Source of the DNA: Candidatus Latescibacterota bacterium
GTDB lineage: Bacteria; Latescibacterota; UBA2968; UBA8231
Direction of reading: 5' to 3'
Assembly: GCA_965206595.1 (NCBI GenBank)
Contig: OZ242214.1
Location: 4,640,001 to 4,704,000, forward strand
Length of the DNA stretch: 64,000 nt
Part shown: piece after piece, positions 3,068-15,773 of the stretch
Layout: each line of letters opens with the position of its first letter
Numbering within the stretch: position 1 is the first letter of the stretch
Translations under genes and position numbers: made by a program
Notes under the pieces: generated by a model
What the model saw: only the letters and a program-made list of their open reading frames with translations
What the model was told of the DNA's origin: nothing
Databases searched by the model: none

Positions 3068-4840
3068 ATGCGACGACGACGCGATTCGATCATCTGGCCA
3101 TGCCTGATCATCTCTTTTCTGCTGCATCTGGTGGCGGTGAACTACATCGCCCTGTCCTGGCGCGAGGCGGAAGAAGCCAAGGCATTCAGGGCGAGGATCG
3201 CCAACATCCCTGCGAGGCGCTTCGAACCGCAACGGATGCGCGTCCCGGAACCCAAACGGCTGCCCGAGTCGAGGATGGAATACCTCCGTCAGGAAGCCGA
3301 GCCGGAGGCCATGACGGAGGAGGTCACCCGCACAGAGCTCGTGCCTCGGGCCCCGGAGGCGCCCGAGGTCGACATCGCCCTCCAGGAAATCGTTACCGGA
3401 GCGCCGCCCGAAACCCTGGCATTCGTCGAGGAGCGCATGCTTTCGCCTCACGAGTATGGCTGGGCGGACACCGCAGGGCGCAGCGAGGCTCTCGATCTGT
3501 TGCGCATGGAGGATCTCGCCCGAGCAGGGAAGGTTCCCGCCACCATCATTCCCGGCCTCCACAGCCGCCGGGACGCCAGGGGGTACATCAACATCCCGAG
3601 GCTGCACCTGTACGGGGCCGGAGCCCGCGGCTTCGCTCTCGACGCCCTGGCTCGCTACGCTCGCGACCGCACGAACATTCTCGTTCAGGTCGACCAGCAC
3701 CGGCACAGCTATTTCGACTCGGAATCCCTCCTCGACGACCCGATTCACTTCCTGTTCGAGGGCGGAGGAAACCCGGTCACTACCTCCGAATACCGGGTCC
3801 GATTCCACGACAAGGAGAAAGAGCTGCTTGCAGAATACATGCGCAGCGGCGGGCTGCTCTATATCGAGGGGGTCGAGGGTCGTTATCGCTTTCTGACCGA
3901 AATGGTCGACACCCTGAAGTCGATCCTGAAAAACGACGGCGGTATCGGTCCGATCGACGTCGATCACGACCTGTATCACTCCTTCTTCGACTTCTACACC
4001 GGTTTCCCTGGAGAGGAGGGCAAGGACGACCTTCTCGAGGTGTCGGAGGGATCGTGGTACTACCCCGGCTCGGAGCGCGGCGATGCGTTGCCACCGTCGG
4101 AAGAACCGTCTTCAGCAATTGAGGAGGACACTGTTCCCGGGCTGCCCAAACTGGGGCTTTGGGGCGTCCAGCTCGACGGCCGTCTCGTGGCCATCTTCAG
4201 CGACATAGCCCTTTGGCAAAAATGGGGAGGGATGTACGAGCTCGAGGAAGAGGCGTCGGCCGCCAGCGGGCCCTTCCTCCAGGCAGGCCTGAACATCCTG
4301 ATGTACGTCCTGAGCCGCGAGGACGGTCTCACACCGGTGCGCGTGCGTCCTGCCTGGGAGGTCACGCGTCCGCGGGTCGCCCCGCAGGAGGAACCGACGA
4401 CCAAGGTCGTGAGCCGCCTTGCCGCAGAGGAAACAGCCAGTCTCGACCGGCTGGCCGACCTCGACGGCTCCCTTGCCCTGCTGCAGTCACCCCTGGGGGC
4501 GGCCGTCGCCGAAGGGGGGGTCACAATCCGGCTCGGGGGGCGCTACACCATATCCTTGCTGCGGGGGGGTAACAACGGGATCCTCCTTCACAACGTCCCG
4601 GCCGGCAGCCACTGGGTCGAAATCGACTACGGCGGGAAGGAGCGGGAAATTGAGGTGGCCGTCGAAGGGGGGCGGGTGACGACGGTGACCTTCGGCATCA
4701 GCCGGTTGGCCTTCGTCAGGCGCCTGAGGCTGAAGGAGCAGTCGGACCGCGTGCCGTTGATGGACTGGATGCTCGGTTTTTCCGACCTGGAAATCGAGGA
4801 GATGTTCCTCGCCGAAGACCGGGACAGCCTGCGCGACTGA
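3068..4840 (+). CDS. Membrane-anchored DUF4159-like protein with C-terminal beta-sandwich
   Basis: N-terminal TM helix with S-x3-H (ISFLLH); GGLLYIE, HDLYHSFFDF, GVQLDGRLVAIFS and GLNILMYVL resemble DUF4159; C-terminal NVPAGSHWVEIDYGG is PEGA/carboxypeptidase-regulatory-like. Confidence 0.65.
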   Translation: MRRRRDSIIWPCLIISFLLHLVAVNYIALSWREAEEAKAFRARIANIPARRFEPQRMRVPEPKRLPESRMEYLRQEAEPEAMTEEVTRTELVPRAPEAPEVDIALQEIVTGAPPETLAFVEERMLSPHEYGWADTAGRSEALDLLRMEDLARAGKVPATIIPGLHSRRDARGYINIPRLHLYGAGARGFALDALARYARDRTNILVQVDQHRHSYFDSESLLDDPIHFLFEGGGNPVTTSEYRVRFHDKEKELLAEYMRSGGLLYIEGVEGRYRFLTEMVDTLKSILKNDGGIGPIDVDHDLYHSFFDFYTGFPGEEGKDDLLEVSEGSWYYPGSERGDALPPSEEPSSAIEEDTVPGLPKLGLWGVQLDGRLVAIFSDIALWQKWGGMYELEEEASAASGPFLQAGLNILMYVLSREDGLTPVRVRPAWEVTRPRVAPQEEPTTKVVSRLAAEETASLDRLADLDGSLALLQSPLGAAVAEGGVTIRLGGRYTISLLRGGNNGILLHNVPAGSHWVEIDYGGKEREIEVAVEGGRVTTVTFGISRLAFVRRLRLKEQSDRVPLMDWMLGFSDLEIEEMFLAEDRDSLRD

Positions 4841-4869
4841 CCGGCGCAGGCCATGGCGTAAAAAGCGGA

Positions 4870-6324
4870 CTACCTGTAGCGGGTAATCCGGCCCTCCTGC
4901 AGACGTTGCCAGTAATCCTGGAGACAGGCCTTGATTTGCGGGCTCAGGAGCACGCCGCCGAGGATGTTGGGGAAGGCCATGCCGAGGATCATCATGTCGG
5001 TGAATCCGATGATGTTGTCGAGAGCCGTCACACTGCCGAGGAAGACGAAAAGAACGAAAATGAAGCGGAAGAGGATAACCGTGGCGGGGCCGAAGAGATA
5101 TTCCCAGGCGCGTTCGCCGTAATACGACCAGGAGATCATCGTCGAATACGCAAACAGGGTGACAGCCAGGGCCAGAACGTATCGCGCCCCGGGGATGAAG
5201 GACTCGAAGGCCGCCGCGGTCATGCGCGCCCCCACGATGGAGCCCCCGGAGGACTGGAACTGCGGATCCTGGTAGACGCCGGTCAGCAGGCAGACAAGCG
5301 CCGTCATCATGCAGATGACGATGGTGTCGATGAAGGGGCCGATCATGGCGACGATCCCCTCCCGCGCCGCTTCGTTCGTCTTGGCAGCCGCGTGCGCGAA
5401 GGCCGCGGACCCGAGTCCGGCTTCGTTGGAGAAGGCCGCACGGCGGATGCCCCAGACCAGGGTGTAGATGAAGCCGCCGCCGACCGCGCGGCCTGTGAAG
5501 GCGTCTTCGATGATCAGGGCGATCATGCCCGGCAGCTCGCCGATGTGGGCGAGGATGATGAACAGGCAAACGGCGACGTACAACACGCACATTAACGGCA
5601 CGATCCGCGAGGTGACGCGGCCGATGCGGCGGATGCCGCCGATGATGACGAGGCCGACGAGGAGAGCCATGAGGAGGCCGACCGCCCAGTTGAAGTCGCG
5701 AAACCCCGGGTGCACGGTTCCCAGTACCTCGAGTGTCTGATTCGCCTGGAACATGTTGCCGCCTCCCAGGCTGCCGCCGATGGTCAGCACGGCGAAAAGC
5801 ACCGCCAGGGTACGTCCAAACTCCAGCCAGCCCTTGGCGCCGAGGCCCTGCTCCAAGTAGTACATGGGGCCGCCGGCGATACGGCCGCCGGGGTGGATAC
5901 GACGGTACATCACCGCCAAGGTGCAGGAGGCGAGCTTCGAGGCCATGCCGAAGAGGGCGGTGACAACCATCCAGAAGACGGCCCCCGGGCCGCCGACGCT
6001 GACGGCGATGGCAACTCCGGCGATGTTGCCGAGGCCGATCGTCGCCGACAGGGCGCTGGTCAGGGCCTGAAAGTGGGATATCTCCCCCGGGTCGGAGGGG
6101 TCGTCGTAGCGGCCGCGAATGACGTCGATGGAATGGCGAAAGGCGCGGATCGTCAGCCAGGAGAAGTAGAAGCTGTAGTAGATGCCGCCGAGTAGCAGGA
6201 CGGCGACGATAAGGGGCAGGCCGCTGCCGAAATCGGCGAACAGAAAGAGGTTGAGGACCTCGACGACACTGCCGAACAGGGTGTCGATGGCGGCGAGCTG
6301 CTCGTGAATCCAAGCGTTATTCAT
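4870..6324 (-). CDS. Alanine/glycine:cation symporter (AgcS family)
   Basis: HFQALTSALSATIGLGNIAGVA, GGPGAVFWM, RAAFSNEAGLGS, GPFIDTIVIC. Confidence 0.93.
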   Translation of the reverse strand: MNNAWIHEQLAAIDTLFGSVVEVLNLFLFADFGSGLPLIVAVLLLGGIYYSFYFSWLTIRAFRHSIDVIRGRYDDPSDPGEISHFQALTSALSATIGLGNIAGVAIAVSVGGPGAVFWMVVTALFGMASKLASCTLAVMYRRIHPGGRIAGGPMYYLEQGLGAKGWLEFGRTLAVLFAVLTIGGSLGGGNMFQANQTLEVLGTVHPGFRDFNWAVGLLMALLVGLVIIGGIRRIGRVTSRIVPLMCVLYVAVCLFIILAHIGELPGMIALIIEDAFTGRAVGGGFIYTLVWGIRRAAFSNEAGLGSAAFAHAAAKTNEAAREGIVAMIGPFIDTIVICMMTALVCLLTGVYQDPQFQSSGGSIVGARMTAAAFESFIPGARYVLALAVTLFAYSTMISWSYYGERAWEYLFGPATVILFRFIFVLFVFLGSVTALDNIIGFTDMMILGMAFPNILGGVLLSPQIKACLQDYWQRLQEGRITRYR

Positions 6325-6495
6325 GGTCCAACTTTAACCATGGACGCGGGTGATCACAAATCGGGATAAATCTCCGGGGATAGCAGACAGGGAGGGCGCT
6401 TGCAATCCCTGTTAGCAAATTGAAAGGCACTGCCCTGCTCCGGCTGACTCTGGCTCGCCAACGAGCTCCGGGGCCGGGAGACGCAAGGCATCCAC

Positions 6496-7212
6496 CTAAG
6501 GGCTTCTTCCTTCGGCAGGCATCCAATCGGGCAATCCGCCCTCGATCCTGACGGTGAGCCGTTCCGGCCTGGCGGCGTCGGGCTCGAAGGCGCGCTCGAT
6601 CACGAGCAACGCCATCGGGACGCGGTGCAGGCGCGCTTTCCGCATCGCCGCGAAGAAACGCAGGTTCTCGCGCTCGACCAGGTCCGGTTCAGGTGAGGTT
6701 CCGCTGCAGATCAGCAGGCAGACCTCGAGGCCGCGGCGCTCCGCCGCCTCGAAGGTGAGAGCGGTGTGATTCAGCGTCCCGAGGCCGGGACGGGCGACGA
6801 CGGCCAGGGCGGCGTTGAGGCGCAGGGCGAGGTCGGCGAAATCCCGCTTCTCATCGATCGGCACCAGAAGCCCCCCCGAGCCCTCCACCAGGGTGAGGTC
6901 GTGAGACGCGGCCACGGACTCGCACTGCCCCACCAGGGTCTCGAAGTCGAGCCGCAGCCCGGCGCGCCGGGCTGCGATCAGCGGCGCCAGCGGTTCGGGG
7001 AAAGAGGCCAGCGTCCCCAGGGTCACGTCCATTCCGTGGAGGGCGGCGCGGTAGAACGCCTCGTCGCCGTCGACCTCCGGATCGGCGCCGGTCTGGACCG
7101 CCTTAATCAGGGCAACCCTTCCCGCCTGCGACGCTTTCCACGCGAGCCAGGCGGAAGCGACCGTTTTGCCGACGCCGGTGTCGGTCCCGGTCACGAGCAC
7201 GACCCTACCCAC
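6496..7212 (-). CDS. bioD: Dethiobiotin synthase
   Basis: VTGTDTGVGKT P-loop, VEGSGGLLVP, LGTLNHT; last gene of the bio operon. Confidence 0.95.
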   Translation of the reverse strand: MGRVVLVTGTDTGVGKTVASAWLAWKASQAGRVALIKAVQTGADPEVDGDEAFYRAALHGMDVTLGTLASFPEPLAPLIAARRAGLRLDFETLVGQCESVAASHDLTLVEGSGGLLVPIDEKRDFADLALRLNAALAVVARPGLGTLNHTALTFEAAERRGLEVCLLICSGTSPEPDLVERENLRFFAAMRKARLHRVPMALLVIERAFEPDAARPERLTVRIEGGLPDWMPAEGRSP

Positions 7213-8386
7213 GGAAGGATTCCATCGCCGCCACGACCTGCTTCAGGTGCTCTTCTTCGTGAGCCGCGGTGACCCCGAAGCGGATCCGCGACGTCCCCCG
7301 GGGAACCGCAGGAGGCCGCACCGCCCGCGCCAGGATGCCGTGTGCCTTGAGATGCTCTTCGGCGGCGGCGGCGGCGGCTGGCCTGCCGAGGATCACCGGC
7401 ACGATCTGCGAGGTGGAGCAGGAGGGTGGGTAGCCGAGGCGCATCAGCCCGGAGCGCAAGGCCGCCCCAAGGTCGAGGACCCGCTTCCGTCGCCACGGCT
7501 CCTCCCGCGCGACATCGAGCGCGGCGCCGGCCGCCGCCACCGCCGACGGCGGCAGCGCCGTATCGAAGATGAAGGTGCGGGCGCGGTCGATGAGGAAGTC
7601 GACGAGGCCCTGGTCGCCGGCGACGAAGCCGCCGATCGAGCCCAGCGCCTTCGAAAGCGTACCGGTGACCACGGCCGGGACGTCGAGGTCGAAGCCCCCC
7701 AGGAGACCGGAGCCGCCGCCGAAAAGGCCGATGGCGTGGGCCTCGTCGACGACCAGCATGGCATGGTGGCGCGACGCCGTTTCTCCCAGGGCATCGAGGG
7801 GCGCCAGGTCGCCGTCCATGCTGAAGACGCTCTCGGTCACGACCAGGCGGCGGCGGGCAGGGGTCCGCCGCAGGAGATCGTCGAGGCGGCCGGAGTCGTT
7901 GTGCGGGTAGGGTAGGGCAGTCGCTCCCGACAACCTGGCGCCGTCGATGACCGAGGCGTGGGCGCGCTCGTCGTAGAAGATCGCGTCCCCGCTTCCGGCC
8001 AAGGCGGAGAGCAGGCCGATGTTGGCCATGTACCCCGAGCTGAACAGCAGGGAGGACTGCCGCCCTGTCATCCGCGCCAGCCGTTCCTGCAGGTCGTCGT
8101 GGAGGGGAGTGGAGCCGTGAAGTAGCCGTGCCGACCCCGCCCCGGCGCCGAATCGGCCGGCGGCCTCGCCGGCCGCTGCAGTCACCTCCGGGTGTGCCCC
8201 AAGCCCGAGGTAGTCGTTCGAGGTGAAAAGGACGCATTCGCGGCCGGCGAGGCAGGCCCGGACCCCGGTGCGGCTCTCCGGAGTCACCACCGACCGCCGC
8301 AGTCCGAGTCGCTCGAGACGGTTGCGTTCCGAGCGCAGGAAGTCAGCCCAGGGTCGAGGTGGACCGGGCGACGCTGTCGAGTCCAT
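7205..8386 (-). CDS. bioF: 8-amino-7-oxononanoate synthase
   Basis: SNDYLGL, SGYMAN, ESVFSMDGD, VDEAH, TLSKALG (PLP lysine). Confidence 0.95.
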   Translation of the reverse strand: MDSTASPGPPRPWADFLRSERNRLERLGLRRSVVTPESRTGVRACLAGRECVLFTSNDYLGLGAHPEVTAAAGEAAGRFGAGAGSARLLHGSTPLHDDLQERLARMTGRQSSLLFSSGYMANIGLLSALAGSGDAIFYDERAHASVIDGARLSGATALPYPHNDSGRLDDLLRRTPARRRLVVTESVFSMDGDLAPLDALGETASRHHAMLVVDEAHAIGLFGGGSGLLGGFDLDVPAVVTGTLSKALGSIGGFVAGDQGLVDFLIDRARTFIFDTALPPSAVAAAGAALDVAREEPWRRKRVLDLGAALRSGLMRLGYPPSCSTSQIVPVILGRPAAAAAAEEHLKAHGILARAVRPPAVPRGTSRIRFGVTAAHEEEHLKQVVAAMESFRG

Positions 8387-9695
8387 ACCTCACCGCCGCG
8401 CAGATCTGCGCGAGCTCGTTCTTTTCAATGGAAAGGGGGGGCATCAGCACCACGGTGTCCCCGAGCGGCCTCACGAATACTCCCCGGTCCCGCGCTCTCA
8501 TGCATGCCCGCCATCCCGCATGCTCCGAGGCGGGCAGCGGCCGCTTGGTGACGCGGTCGGCGACGATATCGACAGCGGCCATCAACCCCTGCTGGCGAAT
8601 CTCCCCTGCGAGGGGATGCTCGCCGAGCACTTCGCGCAGGTTCTCGCCGAGGAAGGAGGCGCGCCTGGCGACCCGGGCGAGGACGGGCTCGCGCTCGAAG
8701 ATATCGAGACTCGCCAGGGCCGCGGCGCAGGCGATCGGGTTTCCCCCGTAGGTATGCCCGTGGAAGAGCGTCTTGCCGTAATCGTGCGGGTCGTGGAAGG
8801 CGTCGTACACGCGATCGCTCGCCACCGTTGCCGAGAGGGGCAGGCAGCCGCCGCTGATCCCCTTGCCCAATACCATGATATCAGGGGTTACTCCTTCGAG
8901 GTCGCAGGCGAACATGGCGCCGGTTTTTCCGAAGCCGGTGGCCACTTCGTCGGCGATGAGCAGCAGGTCGTGTGAACGGCAGAGGTCGGCGACAAGGCGG
9001 AGGTGGCCTTCCGGGGCGACGATCATTCCCGCCGCACCCTGGACCCGCGGCTCGACGACCACCGCGGCGATCTCCCCGGCGCGCGCCGCGAGGAGACGCT
9101 CCAGCGAACCGACGCAAGCGAGGCTGCAGCCGCTTTCCGGCGAACAGAGCGAACAGCCGAGGGCGTGCGGATTGGCGAACCGCAACGGCTCGAACAGGGC
9201 GGCCTCGTACGGCTTGCGGAAGGGCCCGTCGCCCCCAAGAGACGCAGCACCGAGGGTATCGCCGTGGTACGCCATCTCCATTACGGCGAAGCGGCGGCGC
9301 TCCGGGCGGCCGCTGTTGACCCAGAACTGGAGCGCCATCTTGAGCGCCACCTCGACCGCGCTGGCGCCGTCGGAGCTGTAAAAGAAACGGTTCAATCCTT
9401 TGGGGACGTGGGCGGCGAGCCGCTCCGTGAGCTCGATCGCCGGGGTGTGCCCGGCGCCGAGAAGGGTGCTGTGTTGCAACCGCTCCGCCTGGCGCCTGAT
9501 CGCTTCGACGATGTGCGGATGCCCGTGGCCGTGAACAATCGCCCAGAGCGAGGCCACGCCGTCGATGTACTCACGTCCGTCCCTGTCGATGAGGCGGTTG
9601 CCCTCGGCTCGGTCGACGATCAGCCTTGGTTCGCTGTCGTAGCGAGCCATCGGGGTGAAGGCGTTCCAGATGCCAGCCGGGTGCTTTCGAGTCAC
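8343..9695 (-). CDS. bioA: Adenosylmethionine-8-amino-7-oxononanoate aminotransferase
   Basis: WNAFTPM, DGVASLW, AYHGDT, IADEVATGFGKTG, LGKGISGG, FHGHTYGGNP. Start set at GTG 9695 overlapping the bioB TGA; the track ORF to 10604 is over-extended. Confidence 0.93.
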   Translation of the reverse strand: MTRKHPAGIWNAFTPMARYDSEPRLIVDRAEGNRLIDRDGREYIDGVASLWAIVHGHGHPHIVEAIRRQAERLQHSTLLGAGHTPAIELTERLAAHVPKGLNRFFYSSDGASAVEVALKMALQFWVNSGRPERRRFAVMEMAYHGDTLGAASLGGDGPFRKPYEAALFEPLRFANPHALGCSLCSPESGCSLACVGSLERLLAARAGEIAAVVVEPRVQGAAGMIVAPEGHLRLVADLCRSHDLLLIADEVATGFGKTGAMFACDLEGVTPDIMVLGKGISGGCLPLSATVASDRVYDAFHDPHDYGKTLFHGHTYGGNPIACAAALASLDIFEREPVLARVARRASFLGENLREVLGEHPLAGEIRQQGLMAAVDIVADRVTKRPLPASEHAGWRACMRARDRGVFVRPLGDTVVLMPPLSIEKNELAQICAAVRYGLDSVARSTSTLG

Positions 9696-10684
9696 GCCTC
9701 TTCGACCTCGAACCCCATGTCCTCGATCATCTGCAGCGCCTCCCTGGTGCCTTGACCCGGGGTGGTGAGGTAACCCTCGACGAAGATTGAGTTCGCCGCG
9801 TATAGGGCCAGCGGCTGCAGCGACCGCAGATGCAGCTCGCGTCCGCCGGCGACGCGGATCTCCCGGTGGGGATGCAGCAGCCGCGCCAGGCAGAGGATCC
9901 GCAGGCAGTGGAGGGGGCTCAGCCTCCACGTCCCCTCGAGGGGTGTGCCGGAGATGGGATGGAGGAAGTTGACCGGTATCGACCGCGGCTCGAGGTCGCG
10001 GAGCGCCATGAGGACGTCGATCACGTCCTCGTCCGTTTCCCCCATACCGAAGATCGCACCGCTGCAGAGGTCGAGCCCGGCCTTGCGCGCGGCCTGCAGC
10101 GTCTTCACCCGGTCGTTGTAACCGTGGGTGGTGACGACGCTGGGAGTGAACCGCTCGCTGGTATTCAGGTTGTGGTTCAGCTGGTCGATCCCGGCCTTTT
10201 TCAGCGCCCTCGCTTTCTCCTCGTCGAGCAGTCCGACACAGGCGCATATCCCGATATCGACCTCCTCGCGGATGTTGCGCACGGCGTCGGCCAGGTATTC
10301 CACCTCGCGCCAGGACGCCCCCCGTCCGCTTGTAACGATGCAGAAACGCTTGGCCCGGGAGCGCTTGGCTGCCCGAGCCTCTGCGAGCAACTGCTCCTGG
10401 CTCACCATGGGGTATTTCTCGATGGCCGCCTCCGAGACCCGCGATTGCGAGCAGTAGCCGCAGTCCTCGGGACAGAGACCGCTTTTGGCGTTCATCAGGA
10501 CATGCAGGTGCACCTTGTCGCCACAGAAGCGGCGGCGCACCCGGTAGGTCTCGGCGAGCAGGGCGGGCACCTCGCTGTCCTGAGAGCCGAGAACCGCGGC
10601 GCACTCCGCGTGCGTCAGGGGCTCCCCGGCGATCGCCTTGTCGGCCAGGGCTGGGAAGCTGGGAATGGTGGAAGTCGTATTCAT
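9692..10684 (-). CDS. bioB: Biotin synthase (radical SAM)
   Basis: CPEDCGYCSQS radical-SAM motif, NHNLNTS, SIPVNFLHPI, EIRVAGGRE; start at MNTTSTIP. Confidence 0.96.
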   Translation of the reverse strand: MNTTSTIPSFPALADKAIAGEPLTHAECAAVLGSQDSEVPALLAETYRVRRRFCGDKVHLHVLMNAKSGLCPEDCGYCSQSRVSEAAIEKYPMVSQEQLLAEARAAKRSRAKRFCIVTSGRGASWREVEYLADAVRNIREEVDIGICACVGLLDEEKARALKKAGIDQLNHNLNTSERFTPSVVTTHGYNDRVKTLQAARKAGLDLCSGAIFGMGETDEDVIDVLMALRDLEPRSIPVNFLHPISGTPLEGTWRLSPLHCLRILCLARLLHPHREIRVAGGRELHLRSLQPLALYAANSIFVEGYLTTPGQGTREALQMIEDMGFEVEEA

Positions 10685-10731
10685 TCTATAGGTGTCCTGT
10701 TGGTAATGTTGCAGGATATGGCGGGATGCCT

Positions 10732-11967
10732 TCAGGGCGCGGGGGCGGAAAAGAGGAGGACGGCGTTGTGGCCGCCAAAGCCGAACGAGTTCGAAAGCAC
10801 CCGTGCGAGCGGCCTTCGGAGCACCTCGCCGCGCACGCAGGAGATGCCCATTTCGTCGATGCTCTCGCAGTTGATCGTCGGCGGGACGGACCCCGACTCG
10901 ACAGCCTTGGCCGCGGCGACCGCCTGGGCAGCTCCGGAGGCGGCGAGCATGTGGCCCGTCATCGACTTGATCGCGGTTACCGGAACGGGGCCCAGCGCTT
11001 CCCCGAGGGAGGCGCCCAAGGCGCGAACCTCGGCCTCGTCGCCTGCCCGGGTGCCGGCTGCGTGGGCGAATATCGCGCTGACCTCGCGAGGACCGGTGCC
11101 GGCCTTCTCCAGTGCCCGGGAGATGGCCTTCGCCGCGGCTGCACCGTTCGGTTCCGGCCTCGTTTCGTGCACCCCATCGGTCGTTGCGCCGTACCCGGAG
11201 AGCTCGGCGTAGACGCGGGCGCCCCGTCTTCTGGCATGATCCAGCTCCTCGAGAACGAGGACTGCGGCACCCTCGGCGAGCACGAATCCGTCCCGGTCGC
11301 GGTCGAAAGGGCGGCAGGCACGCTGCGGCTCGGCGTTGCGCCGCGACAGCGCTCCGAGAGCGTGGTCGCCGGCCAGGGTCAGCGGGGTTATGCAAGCCTC
11401 GGCGGCGCCGGCGACCATCACCTCGGCATCCCCCCTGCGGATGATCTCGGAAGCCTCGCCGAGGGCGTGGCCACCGGTGGCGCACGCGGAGGAGAGGGCG
11501 AAGCCAGGGCCGCGGAGGTCGAGCAGCATCGCGGCCTGGGCGGCGGCCATGTTGCTGAGCATGCGCGGGATCAGCAAGGGACTCGCGGCTTTTCGACCGG
11601 GGATCGGACCGAGGGCGGCGGCGGCCTGAAGGGCTGTGTTTTCGCCGCCGTGGCTGGAGCCCAGCACGATCCCCGAATCGTACGGATCGTGAGCTTCGAT
11701 TCCGGCGTCCTGCCAGGCCTGCAACGCCGCCCCGACTCCGAACAGGGCGTACCTGTCGAGGCGCCGGGCACGTCTGCGGTCGATTTCGGCAGGGAGCGTG
11801 AATTCCGTGACCTCGCCGGCGATGCGCACCGGGAAGGCGCCGGCATCGAAGAGAGTGATCGGACCGACCCCTGACTGCCCGGCGCACAGTCGGTCCCAGA
11901 AACGGGCGGCACCGGAACCAAGTGGAGTCACGGCCCCCAAGCCGGTGACGGCCACCCTCCGGCTCAT
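10732..11967 (-). CDS. FabF-like beta-ketoacyl-ACP synthase paralogue heading the biotin operon
   Basis: RRVAVTGLG, catalytic Cys in SSACATG, His in FAHAAGT and TGHMLAAS, NSFGFGGHN; start at MSRRV (411 aa). Confidence 0.9.
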   Translation of the reverse strand: MSRRVAVTGLGAVTPLGSGAARFWDRLCAGQSGVGPITLFDAGAFPVRIAGEVTEFTLPAEIDRRRARRLDRYALFGVGAALQAWQDAGIEAHDPYDSGIVLGSSHGGENTALQAAAALGPIPGRKAASPLLIPRMLSNMAAAQAAMLLDLRGPGFALSSACATGGHALGEASEIIRRGDAEVMVAGAAEACITPLTLAGDHALGALSRRNAEPQRACRPFDRDRDGFVLAEGAAVLVLEELDHARRRGARVYAELSGYGATTDGVHETRPEPNGAAAAKAISRALEKAGTGPREVSAIFAHAAGTRAGDEAEVRALGASLGEALGPVPVTAIKSMTGHMLAASGAAQAVAAAKAVESGSVPPTINCESIDEMGISCVRGEVLRRPLARVLSNSFGFGGHNAVLLFSAPAP

Positions 11968-11984
11968 GGTGTCACTGTCTTTGG

Positions 11985-12191
11985 TTCTCCCGGCCGGATG
12001 GGGCAACGGGAAAGCGAGGCGTGACCGCATATCGGTTCGCGCCGAAGCGTTTCAACGCCCTTCAGGAGGTACGCCTCCAAGGCAGAATTCCCGCGCCGCC
12101 CCGGATAGGCCGGGGGGCCGGAGCCCTGGCGGGGGAAGCCAGCGGAACTGCGGCCGCGGTTGCGGCCGCGAACTCCAGACCTGGGGAACCC
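11985..12191 (-). ncRNA. Candidate structured cis-regulatory 5' leader of the biotin operon
   Basis: Nested stems found by hand; two long-range stems need G-U pairs that form only on the minus (mRNA) strand. No known riboswitch consensus recognised. Confidence 0.45.
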
Positions 12192-12313
12192 TTTCATGGA
12201 TCGATCAGACCCTTTTACAGCTCGTTTTTTTGGTCATACCGAGAATATACACCGGCTGAAGGAGTCCCGTTCGCCGGCAAAACGGGAGCCGCCGGAGGCG
12301 CCGACCATCCTGC

Positions 12314-12342
12314 TTGACAGCCTGTCGATACCACCTTAGCCT
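12314..12342 (+). promoter_or_regulatory. sigma70-type promoter of the nqr operon
   Basis: TTGACA-17 nt-TAGCCT, ending 65 nt before the nqrA ATG. Confidence 0.6.
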
Positions 12343-12353
12343 GTAAGGCTTGA

Positions 12354-13759
<1,406 letters not shown>

Positions 13760-13760
<1 letters not shown>

Positions 13761-14971
13761 TGAAGCTGCTCAGAGACCTTCTCGACCAGGCGGCGCCGCT
13801 TTTCGAGCGCGGCGGCCGCCTCGAACGCCTCTACCCGGCGTACGAGGCGGGCGACACGTTCCTGTACACGCCTGGAGAGATCACCCGGGGTGCTTCACAC
13901 GTGCGCGACTCCCTCGACCTCAAGCGCATGATGATAACCGTCGTGGTCGCCCTGGTTCCCTGTATCTTCATGGCGATGTGGAACACAGGGTACCAGGCCA
14001 ACCTGGCGATGGCGGAGATGGGGCTGACCTCGGCGGGCGGGTGGCGCGGGGTCGTCATCGACGTCCTCGAGATCGGCTACGATCCCGGCAACATCATCGC
14101 CAACCTGTTCCACGGAGCCCTCTACTTCATCCCGGTCTTTCTCGTATGCAACATCGTGGGGGGTACCTGGGAGGCGCTGTTCTCGACCATTCGCCGCCAC
14201 GAGATCAACGAGGGTTTCCTGGTTACGGGGATGCTGTTTCCCCTGACCCTGCCGCCGACTATTCCGCTGTGGCAGGTGGCCATCGGCATCAGCTTCGGCG
14301 TCGTCATCGGCAAGGAGATTTTCGGGGGCACCGGCAAGAACTTCCTCAACCCGGCCCTGACCGCGAGGGCGTTTCTGTACTTCGCCTACCCGGTGGAGAT
14401 CACCGGCGACAAGATCTGGGTCGCGGTCGACGGCTACTCCTACGCGACCCCCCTGGGCAAGGTGCCCGCCGCCGGCATCGCCGCCCTGAGCGCGACGTCC
14501 CTGTGGGATGCCTTCCTCGGGACCATACCGGGATCGATGGGGGAGACCTCCTTTCTCGCCTGCGCCATCGGCGCCGCCATCCTGATCGCAACCAAGATCG
14601 GCTCGTGGCGCATCATGCTCGGAATGACTCTGGGCACCCTGGTCTTCGGCTGGCTGATGACGCTGGTCGAAAGCGACACCAACCCGATGTTCGCCATGAG
14701 CCCGCTGTGGCACCTCTTCCTCGGCGGTTTCGCCTTCGGTTGCGTGTTCATGGCCACAGATCCGGTGTCGGCGGCGTTCACGAACCGCGGCAAGTGGTTT
14801 TACGGCGGCCTGATCGGGGCGATGACGATTCTGATCCGCGTAGTCAATCCCGCATTTCCCGAGGGGGTGATGCTGGCGATCCTGTTCGGCAACGTGTTCG
14901 CCCCCGTAATCGACTATTTCGTGGTACAGGCAAACATCAAGCGGCGCCTGTTGCGAACGGCTGCCGGTTGA
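13760..14971 (+). CDS. nqrB: Na+-NQR subunit B
   Basis: [31 protein letters not shown]-Thr motif [17 protein letters not shown]; ATG overlaps the nqrA TGA. Confidence 0.96.
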
Positions 14972-14993
14972 GCCAGGGAGGCGAGCGAGCACC

Positions 14994-15773
14994 GTGCCCA
15001 AAGAGACCATCGGCAAGACCTTCTTCGTCGCCGCGGCCCTGTGCGTGATCTGCTCCGTTCTCGTTTCCACCGCGGCGGTTACGCTGCGTCCGACCCAGGG
15101 GGTCAACAAGCTCCTCGACAAGAAGCGGAACATCCTGACCGCTGCCGGCCTCTTCGACGAGAGCAGGCCGATCGACGAGCTGTTCGAGAGCATCGAGGAG
15201 AAGGTCGTCGATCTCGCCAGCGGCGAATTCGTCGACCTTGACCCGGACGAATACGATCAGCGCAACGCCGCCCGCGACCCGGACCAGAGCGTCGCCATCC
15301 CCGCCAAGCGAGACCCGGCAGGCATCAAGCGCCGAGCCAAGTTCGCCGCTGTGTACCTCGTGTACAGGAAGGGCGAGGTCGACAAGGTCATCCTGCCGCT
15401 ACATGGCAAGGGGCTGTGGTCGACCCTCTACGGTTTCCTCGCCCTCGACATCGAAGACGTCAATACCATTCGCAGTCTCGTCTACTATGAACACGGCGAG
15501 ACTCCCGGGCTCGGGGGCGAGGTCGACAACCCTCGCTGGAAGGCGCTGTGGAACGGCAAACGCGCTTTCGACGACGAGGGCAGGGTCGCCATTGAGGTGG
15601 TCCGCGGGCTGGTCGACGCCAACAGTCCGCAAGCGGTCTACCAGGTCGACGGGCTTTCCGGGGCGACGATAACCTCGCGCGGAGTGAGCAACACACTTAG
15701 GTACTGGTTGGGCGAGGACGGGTACGGCCCCTTCCTCGATCGCCTGAAGGAAAAAGGAGCTGCCCATGGGTAA
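14994..15773 (+). CDS. nqrC: Na+-NQR subunit C
   Basis: [20 protein letters not shown] motif [11 protein letters not shown]. Confidence 0.96.

What the first reader, a model, noticed from the sequence alone, without database searches (positions are those of the whole stretch)
6496..11967. Biotin operon led by a FabF paralogue with a polar acyl pocket: candidate alternative route to the pimeloyl precursor
Seen: the operon is fabF-like, bioB, bioA, bioF, bioD, with no bioC, bioH, bioG, bioW, bioI or bioZ in it. The FabF keeps the Cys-His-His triad, but the usual acyl-channel motif GSGIGGL reads GSSHGGE, the next helix has an Arg (PRMLSNM), and NAHGTST reads FAHAAGT. Established: the Ile of GSGIGG (I108 in E. 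coli FabF) lines the acyl pocket and limits chain length. BioZ, a FabH-type enzyme, makes the pimeloyl precursor from glutaryl-CoA using an Arg to hold the free carboxylate. Inference: this KAS-II-type enzyme may elongate unmasked dicarboxylic acyl chains, removing the need for BioC/BioH. Caveat: I recall fab paralogues in bio operons being predicted in some deltaproteobacteria, so the gene association may not be wholly new.
Basis: partly seen in the sequence, partly recalled or inferred. Interest (0 to 1): 0.85.

Follow-up and report, generated by a model that had tools for sequence, protein, structure and literature searches.

The report
Biotin-operon ketosynthase with a polar pocket
A biotin operon begins with a special copy of the fatty-acid chain-extending enzyme FabF whose fatty pocket has been made polar, and it probably makes the seven-carbon biotin precursor by a route that has not been tested at the bench.

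Summary
On the minus strand lie a KAS-II paralogue ("KASb", 10732-11967), then bioB, bioA, bioF and bioD.

The 7.05-Mb genome has a separate housekeeping fabH-fabD-fabG-acpP-fabF cluster. It has no BioC, BioH, BioG or BioW above threshold.

KASb belongs to a monophyletic subfamily: 84 of 112 full-length database hits, SH-aLRT 100. The subfamily keeps the Cys-His-His triad and both gating loops. It replaces both FabF "back-gate" residues, I108 to His and F202 to Asp, and adds Glu109 and Arg135.

In 9 of 10 distinct lineages KASb lies next to bioB, in two gene orders and two phyla. Only 1 of 80 ordinary FabF loci does. No ACP, FabG or FabZ travels with it.

Within its own family, KASb genomes lack BioC and BioC genomes lack KASb. 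The operon looks horizontally acquired.

Best reading: KASb is a dedicated condensing enzyme that makes pimeloyl-ACP from unmasked carboxy-acyl chains, with housekeeping FAS doing the reductions. The idea is already known from the Desulfovibrio bio-fab cluster. The ketosynthase-only form and the residue signature appear to be new. There is no biochemistry yet.

The parts
10732..11967 (-). KASb: a 411-aa beta-ketoacyl-ACP synthase II paralogue and first gene of the operon. A longer ORF starts at 12030, but homologues align from 11967.
   Evidence: PF00109 plus PF02801; TIGR03150 446.6 bits, below 493.75. Cys162/His302/His339, Lys334, the GFGG loop and the Asp264-Asn401 pair are kept; clade-specific residues are His106, Glu109, Arg135, Cys192, Asp201, Glu268, Arg270, Lys288, Phe300, Ala303 and Gln348. 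AlphaFold2 pLDDT 92.4, and TM 0.96 to solved FabF structures.
9692..10684 (-). bioB, biotin synthase
   Evidence: TIGR00433 389.3 bits against a cut-off of 225. Radical_SAM plus BATS domains.
8343..9695 (-). bioA, adenosylmethionine-8-amino-7-oxononanoate transaminase. The GTG start at 9695 overlaps the bioB stop; an alternative ATG lies at 9650.
   Evidence: TIGR00508 487.7 bits against 405.
7205..8386 (-). bioF, 8-amino-7-oxononanoate synthase. It consumes the pimeloyl thioester and L-alanine.
   Evidence: TIGR00858 405 bits, just under its 426.45 cut-off but the best family by more than 80 bits.
6496..7212 (-). bioD, dethiobiotin synthase
   Evidence: TIGR00347 123.2 bits against 83.3.
4870..6324 (-). 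Downstream same-strand gene for a 484-aa membrane protein that I read from memory as an alanine/glycine:cation symporter (it was not scanned against any family library). It may be co-transcribed.
   Evidence: ORF; the same neighbour follows bioD in 5 of the 6 related genomes examined; in the sixth the contig ends inside bioF; the only terminator-like hairpin on this strand outside a coding region lies after this gene, at 4890-4866; two weaker matches fall inside genes. Its membership of the unit is an inference.
11968..12407 (.). Intergenic region between KASb and the divergent nqrA. It presumably holds the promoter.
   Evidence: no operator-like element is conserved between the two genera that carry the operon; no sigma-70-like match.

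Best explanation
KASb is a dedicated condensing enzyme that supplies the pimeloyl-ACP used by BioF, in place of the BioC/BioH methyl-ester trick. It is a complete, ACP-dependent KAS-II. The catalytic triad, the catalytic lysine and both front-gate loops are intact. The hydrophobic acyl pocket has been rebuilt. The two back-gate residues that sit at about C7-C8 of a bound chain in E. coli FabF, I108 and F202, are His and Asp. Nearby L111 is Glu and S136 is Arg. Inferred mechanism: an acyl-enzyme that ends in a free carboxylate (glutaryl, about as long as a C6-C7 chain) places its carboxylate against the His/Asp(/Arg) cluster. KASb condenses it with malonyl-ACP to give 3-oxopimeloyl-ACP. Housekeeping FabG, FabZ and FabI reduce this to pimeloyl-ACP. 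The closed polar gate also works as a ruler: ordinary long acyl chains are excluded and elongation stops at C7. My preferred sub-variant is that KASb also performs the first round, malonyl plus malonyl-ACP giving the C5 chain, so that three malonates yield pimelate with no extra gene. What is shown: gene order, the conserved signature, linkage to bio genes, and absence of the known pimelate genes. What is inferred: the substrates, the role of each residue, and the use of the housekeeping ACP and reductases.
For: (1) Operon: KASb is followed by bioB, bioA, bioF and bioD with gaps of 47 nt or less.

(2) The own genome (one 7.05-Mb contig) has no BioC (best 61.6 bits against 185, partial), no BioH (37.9 against 207), no BioG and no BioW. 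It has a canonical fabH-fabD-fabG-acpP-fabF cluster whose FabF scores 607 bits.

(3) Signature in 85 clade sequences against 30 other KAS sequences: His106 84/85 against Ile 30/30; Asp201 84/85 against Phe 28/30; Glu109 85/85; Arg/Lys135 80/85; Gln348 84/85 against Glu 30/30. The one member with Arg106 has His201, a paired change that fits contact between the two positions.

(4) The review PMC9006962 (passages) places I108-F202 as a gate at about C7-C8. It notes that glutaryl-ACP methyl ester equals roughly a C7 chain.

(5) The clade is monophyletic, SH-aLRT 100 with a stem of 0.45, in a 70-row tree.

(6) Linkage: all 7 in-phylum carriers have KASb-bioBAFD. Three Chloroflexota genomes (G551, G267, G1090) have bioB next to KASb; in G551 and G267, where longer contigs allow it, the full order is bioF-bioA-bioD-bioB-KASb. 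Seven of 8 metagenome loci also have bioB directly upstream of KASb. By contrast 1 of 80 ordinary FabF loci has bioB nearby, while 51 of 80 have acpP.

(7) The only neighbours conserved across 9 loci are the four bio genes.

(8) Complementarity in family f1 (76 genomes). A full-length BioC-like gene (113-141 bits, below the curated BioC cut-off) occurs in 36 genomes, none of which has KASb. It sits inside the bio cluster in the one such genome examined. KASb occurs in 7 genomes, none of which has BioC-like. In genus g18 bioB is present in exactly the 4 of 10 genomes that have KASb.

(9) In the Chloroflexota order of G551 (39 genomes), 3 of 3 KASb genomes have bioB against 3 of 36 others, and none has BioC. 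One KASb-less bio operon there carries an AMP-binding ligase after bioD instead.

(10) E. coli FabG, FabA and FabI convert free-carboxyl 3-ketopimeloyl-ACP to pimeloyl-ACP in vitro (PMC7645780 and PMC12625853, passages). Only the condensation step therefore needs a specialist.
Against: No biochemical or genetic test exists for any member of this clade. No coordinates of the model were available, so the geometry of His106, Asp201, Glu109 and Arg135 rests on homology to E. coli FabF, not on measurement. Two acidic residues at the pocket floor could repel a carboxylate as easily as position a His or Arg. One lineage (G419 and its metagenome twin L158) has KASb with no bio gene within 10 kb, although bioB is elsewhere in that genome. 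Nine bioB-positive genomes of family f1 have neither KASb nor a BioC hit at E<=1e-20, so complementarity is not perfect; the two of these examined do carry a BioH-like hydrolase in the bio cluster. The genome holds one cytochrome P450 of unassigned function, 370 kb away, and BioE could not be searched because I had no family accession. The genomes compared are kin, so the counts overstate independence. The source of a C5 primer is unknown.
Confidence: 0.6

Rival explanations
1. BioZ-like single step. KASb performs only the last condensation, taking glutaryl-CoA or glutaryl-ACP made elsewhere (for example by lysine catabolism) and malonyl-ACP to give 3-oxopimeloyl-ACP. It does not start from malonate.
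For: The remodelled back gate sits where a C5 dicarboxylate would end, not a C3 one. BioZ shows that this logic works with housekeeping reductases. No other pathway gene is conserved beside KASb.
Against: KAS-II enzymes normally take ACP-bound primers delivered through the gating loops, and those loops are intact here. No glutaryl-supplying gene is linked in any of the 9 loci compared. Whether carriers have a lysine-to-glutaryl-CoA route was not tested.
Confidence: 0.22
2. Masked-substrate route with unrecognised partners. KASb elongates a methyl-ester or otherwise masked malonyl-ACP made by a methyltransferase that is not a recognisable BioC, and an unrecognised esterase then unmasks it.
For: The genome has 16 generic class-I methyltransferase hits to the BioC model (best 61.6 bits) and several alpha/beta hydrolases. 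BioH-replacing esterases are notoriously diverse (PMC12704756 passages).
Against: None of these genes is linked to the operon, in this genome or in any of the 9 loci compared. A masked substrate is handled by ordinary FabF or FabB, so no dedicated KAS with a polar pocket would be needed. Relatives that do use BioC keep BioC and the hydrolase inside the bio cluster and have no KASb.
Confidence: 0.07
3. KASb works with the genome's second FAS-like cluster as a dispersed version of the Desulfovibrio-type dedicated pathway. That cluster (C1:2691328-2695990) encodes an SDR, a FabH-like enzyme, two FabA/FabZ-like dehydratases, a KAS, an ACP and a PlsC-type acyltransferase.
For: The cluster holds the same enzyme types as the Desulfovibrio insert: ACP, reductase, two dehydratases and a KAS (PMC10102598).
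Against: Its KAS is present in 14 of 76 family genomes, and 7 of those lack both KASb and bioB. It ends in a lipid acyltransferase. The Chloroflexota-type KASb loci have no ACP, FabG or FabZ nearby, and their genomes were not searched for this cluster.
Confidence: 0.04
4. KASb is not a pimelate enzyme. It is a fatty-acid or secondary-lipid paralogue that merely travels with the bio genes, and pimelate comes from another or unknown source such as a P450, a BioE-like enzyme or uptake.
For: One lineage has KASb unlinked to bio genes. One P450 exists in the genome. BioE could not be searched.
Against: Linkage survives a change of gene order and of phylum. KASb and bioB are gained and lost together. 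The pocket changes remove the hydrophobic gate needed for long chains. A housekeeping FabF already exists.
Confidence: 0.07

Closest known systems
Desulfovibrio-type extended biotin cluster (DVU2558-DVU2565). Predicted by Rodionov et al. 2004 (PMC545781); supported by transposon fitness data in Trotter et al. 2023 (PMC10102598). Passages of both were read.
   Same: A FabF-annotated KAS sits inside a bio cluster in genomes without bioC or bioH. [quoted passage not shown]
   Different: That cluster also encodes its own ACP, a 3-oxoacyl-ACP reductase and two FabZ-like proteins, and it needs a nitroreductase-like gene. It was reported only from anaerobes of Desulfobacterota and Chrysiogenetes. Here only the KAS accompanies bioBAFD in all 9 loci compared, and the hosts are another phylum and Chloroflexota. 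Whether KASb is an orthologue of DVU2563 could not be tested, because no Desulfovibrio sequence was reachable.
BioZ, a KAS-III-type enzyme of alpha-proteobacteria (PMC7645780, PMC8024396, PMC12625853)
   Same: It is a condensing-enzyme paralogue encoded in bio operons. It accepts a primer with a free omega-carboxylate and hands 3-ketopimeloyl-ACP to housekeeping FabG, dehydratase and FabI. It replaces BioC/BioH.
   Different: BioZ is FabH-like, with a Cys-His-Asn triad and a CoA primer. KASb is FabF-like, with a Cys-His-His triad and gating loops for ACP-bound primers. In BioZ the carboxylate is held by two serines. KASb offers a His/Asp/Glu/Arg cluster at the back gate.
Housekeeping FabF (KAS II), as used by the E. 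coli BioC-BioH route
   Same: The fold is the same (TM 0.96, rmsd 1.7 A), as are the triad, the catalytic lysine, the GFGG loop and the Asp265-Asn404 pair. Identity to E. coli FabF is 42%.
   Different: It scores below the equivalog cut-off. Both back-gate residues I108 and F202 are replaced, together with about ten further co-varying positions. It is encoded in a bio operon rather than a fab cluster. The genome has a separate true FabF.
BioI-BioW and BioE routes, which cleave long acyl chains oxidatively or activate free pimelate
   Same: They supply the same product, a pimeloyl thioester, and also sit next to bio genes.
   Different: The chemistry and protein families are unrelated. BioW is absent from this genome. 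BioE could not be searched.

Membership tests
FabF / KAS II (NCBIfam TIGR03150 equivalog) | Two-domain thiolase fold (PF00109 plus PF02801) superposable on solved FabF structures | tested here: met
   pLDDT 92.4; TM 0.96, rmsd 1.7 A to P. aeruginosa and E. coli FabF.
FabF / KAS II (NCBIfam TIGR03150 equivalog) | Cys-His-His catalytic triad, catalytic Lys, GFGG gating loop and the Asp265-Asn404 pair | tested here: met
   Cys162, His302, His339, Lys334, Gly396-Phe397-Gly398-Gly399, Asp264 and Asn401 are invariant in the 49-sequence clade alignment.
FabF / KAS II (NCBIfam TIGR03150 equivalog) | Score at or above the curated equivalog cut-off | tested here: not met
   446.6 bits against 493.75. 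The broader subfamily NF005589 is met (433.5 against 387). The genome's other FabF scores 607 bits.
FabF / KAS II (NCBIfam TIGR03150 equivalog) | Hydrophobic back gate Ile108-Phe202, described as conserved and typical of FabF | tested here: not met
   His106 and Asp201 in 84 of 85 clade members; Ile in 30 of 30 and Phe in 28 of 30 other KAS sequences.
FabF / KAS II (NCBIfam TIGR03150 equivalog) | Encoded with acpP, fabG, fabD and fabH | tested here: not met
   no such neighbour at any KASb locus. By contrast 51 of 80 ordinary FabF loci have acpP nearby.
Desulfovibrio-type dedicated pimeloyl-ACP pathway | KAS gene inside the bio cluster, in a genome without bioC or bioH | tested here: met
Desulfovibrio-type dedicated pimeloyl-ACP pathway | Dedicated ACP, 3-oxoacyl-ACP reductase and FabZ-like dehydratases in the same cluster | tested here: not met
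   none was found in the flanks of the loci compared, using tblastn with E. coli AcpP, FabG and FabZ at E<=1e-5. The same method finds AcpP in 51 of 80 control loci.
Desulfovibrio-type dedicated pimeloyl-ACP pathway | KAS orthologous to DVU2563 | not testable with these tools
   No Desulfovibrio or Desulfobacterota sequence could be reached.
BioZ | FabH-type (KAS III) enzyme with a Cys-His-Asn triad | tested here: not met
   KASb is KAS-II type with a Cys-His-His triad. The genome's only extra FabH-like gene lies in the unrelated second FAS-like cluster.
BioZ | Condenses a free-carboxyl glutaryl primer with malonyl-ACP | not testable with these tools
   This needs an enzyme assay.
BioC-BioH pathway | BioC methyltransferase and a pimeloyl-ACP methyl-ester esterase in the genome | tested here: not met
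   best BioC hit 61.6 bits against 185 (partial), best BioH hit 37.9 against 207, BioG none. Relatives that use this route score 113-141 bits full-length for BioC; in the one such genome examined, BioC and a hydrolase sit inside the bio cluster.

The most novel reading that the evidence does not exclude
A single remodelled KAS II is sufficient, together with the ordinary fatty-acid ACP, reductases and dehydratase, to turn three malonyl units into pimeloyl-ACP with no masking group. Its His-Asp back gate acts as the omega-carboxylate anchor and as the C7 chain-length ruler. That would be a one-gene, horizontally portable route to the biotin precursor, distinct from BioC-BioH, BioI-BioW, BioZ, BioE and the multi-gene Desulfovibrio system. 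It would also be a direct demonstration of the old three-malonate proposal.
Probability: 0.35. Interest if true: 0.85.

Novelty: new variant of a known kind. Interest (0 to 1): 0.72.

Why it matters
How bacteria obtain the pimelate moiety is the variable part of biotin synthesis and is still incompletely mapped. A December 2025 paper counts four established routes, and none of them is FabF-type (PMC12704756, passages).

Fatty-acid enzymes have been thought unable to tolerate a free carboxylate, which is the accepted reason for the BioC methyl ester (PMC7645780). This clade offers a concrete, one-gene test of whether remodelling the pocket of the ketosynthase alone removes that need. The candidate specificity residues are named: His106, Asp201, Glu109 and Arg135.

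If true, it would fill a gap in pathway annotation for genomes that look like biotin prototrophs without a pimelate route. It would give a compact part for engineered biotin or pimelate production. It would also show how a KAS chain-length gate can be converted into a polar ruler.

Tried and rejected
- The scan of genome contigs with the full clade alignment was swamped by the generic GFGGHN pattern. None of the 80 loci returned carries the clade motif. I reused them as a control set of ordinary FabF loci.
- The search of protein representatives with the clade profile returned mostly giant multi-KS polyketide synthases. It gave no usable census.
- The protein-atlas search returned only generic KAS clusters.
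- No operator-like element conserved between the two carrier genera was seen upstream of KASb. No sigma-70-like promoter was found.
- No RNA holder was listed for the operon.
- Clade-level hits were not found in 301 sampled genomes of the phylum of G573 (Actinomycetota by its record title) or in 201 of the phylum of G575 (Armatimonadota). These were samples in which only part of the candidates was scored, so the clade is not shown absent.
- I considered the second FAS-like cluster as a partner and rejected it on its distribution.
- I considered the second FabH-like gene as a BioZ and rejected it on its context and distribution.
- BioE could not be searched because I had no family accession. 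BioI cannot be told from other P450s with the libraries at hand.
- The supplements of PMC10102598, which list further clusters, could not be seen. They might include KAS-only operons.
- Complex prediction and docking were not attempted. No model coordinates are exposed, and carrier-enzyme pairs are poor targets for that tool.

Full report
**What is there.** The window is G000:C1:4640001-4704000 of a 7.05-Mb single-contig genome. Five genes lie head to tail on the minus strand:
- a 411-aa beta-ketoacyl-ACP synthase II paralogue, here called KASb, at 10732-11967;
- bioB at 9692-10684;
- bioA at 8343-9695;
- bioF at 7205-8386;
- bioD at 6496-7212.

KASb and bioB are 47 nt apart, and the other gene ends overlap. 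KASb scores 446.6 bits on the fabF equivalog model, below its cut-off of 493.75. A membrane-transporter gene follows at 4870-6324. I read it from memory as an alanine/glycine:cation symporter; it was not scanned against any family library. The only terminator-like hairpin on this strand that lies outside a coding region comes after that gene. nqrA is divergent upstream.

**Rest of the genome.** A canonical fabH-fabD-fabG-acpP-fabF cluster lies at 6.803-6.808 Mb, and its FabF scores 607 bits. No BioC, BioH, BioG or BioW reaches threshold:
- BioC: best 61.6 bits against 185, a partial match;
- BioH: best 37.9 bits against 207;
- BioG and BioW: no match.

One P450 of unassigned function lies 370 kb away. 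A second FAS-like cluster at 2.691-2.696 Mb encodes an SDR, a FabH-like enzyme, two FabA/FabZ-like dehydratases, a KAS, an ACP and a PlsC-type acyltransferase. Its KAS occurs in 14 of 76 genomes of the family, and 7 of those have neither KASb nor bioB. I therefore treat it as unrelated to biotin.

**KASb belongs to a distinct subfamily.** The database search listed 120 hits, of which 112 are full length (at least 380 aa). Eighty-four of those share the signature down to 49% identity. One more is frameshifted, and 27 are ordinary FabFs. In a 70-row maximum-likelihood tree the 46 signature-bearing rows form one clade (SH-aLRT 100, stem length 0.45). They sit beside FabFs of Chloroflexota type.

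I mapped KASb onto E. coli FabF, taken from NC_000913. The mapping is justified by an AlphaFold2 model with pLDDT 92.4 that superposes on solved FabF structures at TM 0.96. The following are kept: Cys163, His303, His340, Lys335, the GFGG loop, the Asp265-Asn404 pair and Pro272.

The clade-specific changes, in E. coli numbering, are G107S, I108H, L111E, S136R, A193C, F202D, M269E, S271R/H, D289K, Y299A, N301F, G304A and E349Q. Counts in 85 clade sequences against 30 other KAS sequences:

| Query position | Clade | Other KAS |
|---|---|---|
| 106 | His 84/85 | Ile 30/30 |
| 201 | Asp 84/85 | Phe 28/30 |
| 109 | Glu 85/85 | Ile, Val or Leu 30/30 |
| 135 | Arg or Lys 80/85 | Met 23/30 |
| 348 | Gln 84/85 | Glu 30/30 |

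The single member with Arg at 106 has His at 201. Positions 268 and 288 co-vary (Glu/Lys, or Val/Gln in three members), which suggests a structural salt bridge rather than substrate contact.

According to the review PMC9006962 (passages read), I108 and F202 form the back gate of FabF at about C7-C8 of a bound chain. The I108F variant restricts elongation, and glutaryl-ACP methyl ester is equivalent to about a C7 chain. In this clade, then, exactly that gate has become a His/Asp pair.

**Linkage to biotin genes.** In the window's phylum (168 genomes held), clade-level scores above 640 bits occur in 7 genomes. These are all 3 of the window's genus and 4 of 10 of genus g18. The next best score, from housekeeping FabF, is 508 bits. 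Five of the six relatives show the full KASb-bioB-bioA-bioF-bioD order between nqrA and the transporter gene. In the sixth the contig ends inside bioF.

In 401 sampled Chloroflexota genomes three carry the clade. Two have the order bioF-bioA-bioD-bioB-KASb. One (G419) has KASb alone, with bioB on another contig. A fourth carrier, G1090, has bioB next to KASb.

A metagenome scan with a clade-specific 54-residue alignment gave 8 loci. Seven have bioB directly upstream of KASb. The eighth matches the G419 type. After collapsing near-duplicates, I count 9 of 10 lineages as linked.

The control set is 80 ordinary FabF loci: 1 has bioB nearby and 51 have acpP. Across 9 KASb loci the only conserved neighbours are the four bio genes. 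No ACP, FabG or FabZ was found in any flank.

**Phyletic pattern.** In family f1 (76 genomes) bioB is present in 51. A full-length BioC-like gene scoring 113-141 bits, below the curated BioC cut-off, occurs in 36 genomes (31 of 31 in genus g12 and 5 of 5 in g15). In the one such genome I examined, it lies inside the bio cluster next to a weak BioH-like hydrolase. None of these 36 has KASb, and none of the 7 KASb genomes has the BioC-like gene. In g18 the four bioB-positive genomes are exactly the four with KASb.

Nine further bioB-positive genomes have neither marker at the thresholds used. The two of them that I examined carry the BioH-like hydrolase in the bio cluster.

In the Chloroflexota order that holds G551 and G267 (39 genomes), bioB occurs in 6. 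All 3 KASb genomes have it, against 3 of 36 others, and none has BioC. One KASb-less operon there, bioB-bioA-bioF-bioD, is followed by an AMP-binding acyl-CoA ligase. This suggests that the slot for the pimeloyl supplier can be filled in different ways. BioC and BioW are also missing from five other carriers that I tested. All these genomes are kin, so the counts are descriptive, not statistical.

**Origin.** The window's BioB is 57-66% identical to BioB in the Chloroflexota-type operons but 38-41% identical to the BioB of its own family. BioA, BioF and BioD show smaller gaps in the same direction. The operon's G+C content is 68%, against 63-65% in the flanks. In the tree the window's KASb is nested inside the clade. 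I infer that the whole KASb-bio operon entered the lineage leading to genera g1 and g18 by horizontal transfer. That lineage otherwise lacks bio genes. This is an inference, and the direction of transfer was not tested.

**Mechanism.** These points are shown:
- KASb is an intact, ACP-type condensing enzyme.
- It has a conserved, polar replacement of the FabF back gate.
- It is co-inherited and co-located with bioBAFD.
- Its carriers lack the known pimelate genes that could be searched.

These points come from the literature:
- E. coli FabG, FabA and FabI reduce free-carboxyl 3-ketopimeloyl-ACP (PMC7645780 and PMC12625853, passages).
- The need for BioC methylation is attributed to hydrophobic active sites.

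From these I infer the following. KASb accepts an acyl chain that ends in a free carboxylate, anchors it on the His/Asp(/Arg/Glu) cluster, and condenses it with malonyl-ACP. The housekeeping enzymes complete the cycle. The closed polar gate prevents elongation beyond C7 and excludes ordinary fatty acyl chains. Whether KASb performs both rounds from malonyl-ACP or only the glutaryl-to-3-oxopimeloyl step is open; I favour the former slightly.

**Comparison with what is known.** The concept is not new. Rodionov et al. 2004 predicted a fab-like pimeloyl route in Desulfovibrio, and Trotter et al. 2023 showed that those genes are needed for biotin-free growth. Trotter et al. also speculated about less hydrophobic active sites.

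That system has its own ACP, reductase and two dehydratases, and was reported only from anaerobic Desulfobacterota and Chrysiogenetes. The present clade is KAS-only, and I found it in another phylum and in Chloroflexota. I could not fetch DVU2563, so orthology is untested.

Five full-text searches found no paper that describes a bio-linked KAS II outside the Desulfovibrio type, or the His/Asp back-gate signature. The library lacks most subscription journals, and supplements were closed.

**Verdict.** I rate it a new variant of a known kind, with interest 0.72.

Noticed in passing
G000:C1:2691328-2695990 (locus L162, about 8314-12990, minus strand); outside the window: A second, self-contained FAS-like cluster: SDR, FabH-like KAS III, FabA-like and FabZ-like dehydratases, a divergent KAS (285 bits on fabF), an ACP and a PlsC-type acyltransferase, followed by a DDE transposase. 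Its KAS is present in genera g1, g14 and g18 only. It probably makes a special lipid rather than biotin.
   Followed up: partly
window 4870-6324 (-): A 484-aa transporter gene follows bioD on the same strand in 5 of the 6 related genomes examined, and the only terminator-like hairpin outside a coding region lies after it. I read it from memory as an alanine/glycine:cation symporter; it was not scanned against any family library. BioF consumes L-alanine, so co-transcription might be functional or might be mere synteny.
   Followed up: partly
window 6001-12000, compared with loci L163-L167: The whole KASb-bio operon looks foreign. Its BioB is 57-66% identical to Chloroflexota-type BioB but 38-41% identical to the BioB of the same family. 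Its G+C content is about 68%, against 63-65% in the flanks. In genus g18 the flanking NqrA is only 65% identical while the operon proteins are 79-87% identical.
   Followed up: partly
L175 (G519:C19) 4624-10957: A Chloroflexota bio operon with the same order, bioB-bioA-bioF-bioD, lacks KASb and is followed by a 557-aa AMP-binding acyl-CoA ligase. This is a candidate pimeloyl-CoA synthetase of a type unrelated to BioW.
   Followed up: no
L165 6234-7109, L166 12594-13463, L167 5924-6607: The native bio clusters of the window's family carry a small alpha/beta hydrolase whose only NCBIfam hit is a weak partial BioH match (39-46 bits). It may be another BioH-replacing esterase type.
   Followed up: no
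G551:C43:23908-25140 (L143/L148): The KASb match in this Chloroflexota genome was reported with one in-frame TGA in the open frame. Whether it lies inside the gene was not checked. An identical full-length protein (P0060) exists in the database.
   Followed up: no
window 12408-15773 (+): ORFs that I read from their translations, without a family scan, as a Na+-translocating NADH:quinone reductase operon (nqrA, nqrB, nqrC and onward) run divergently from the bio operon.
   Followed up: no
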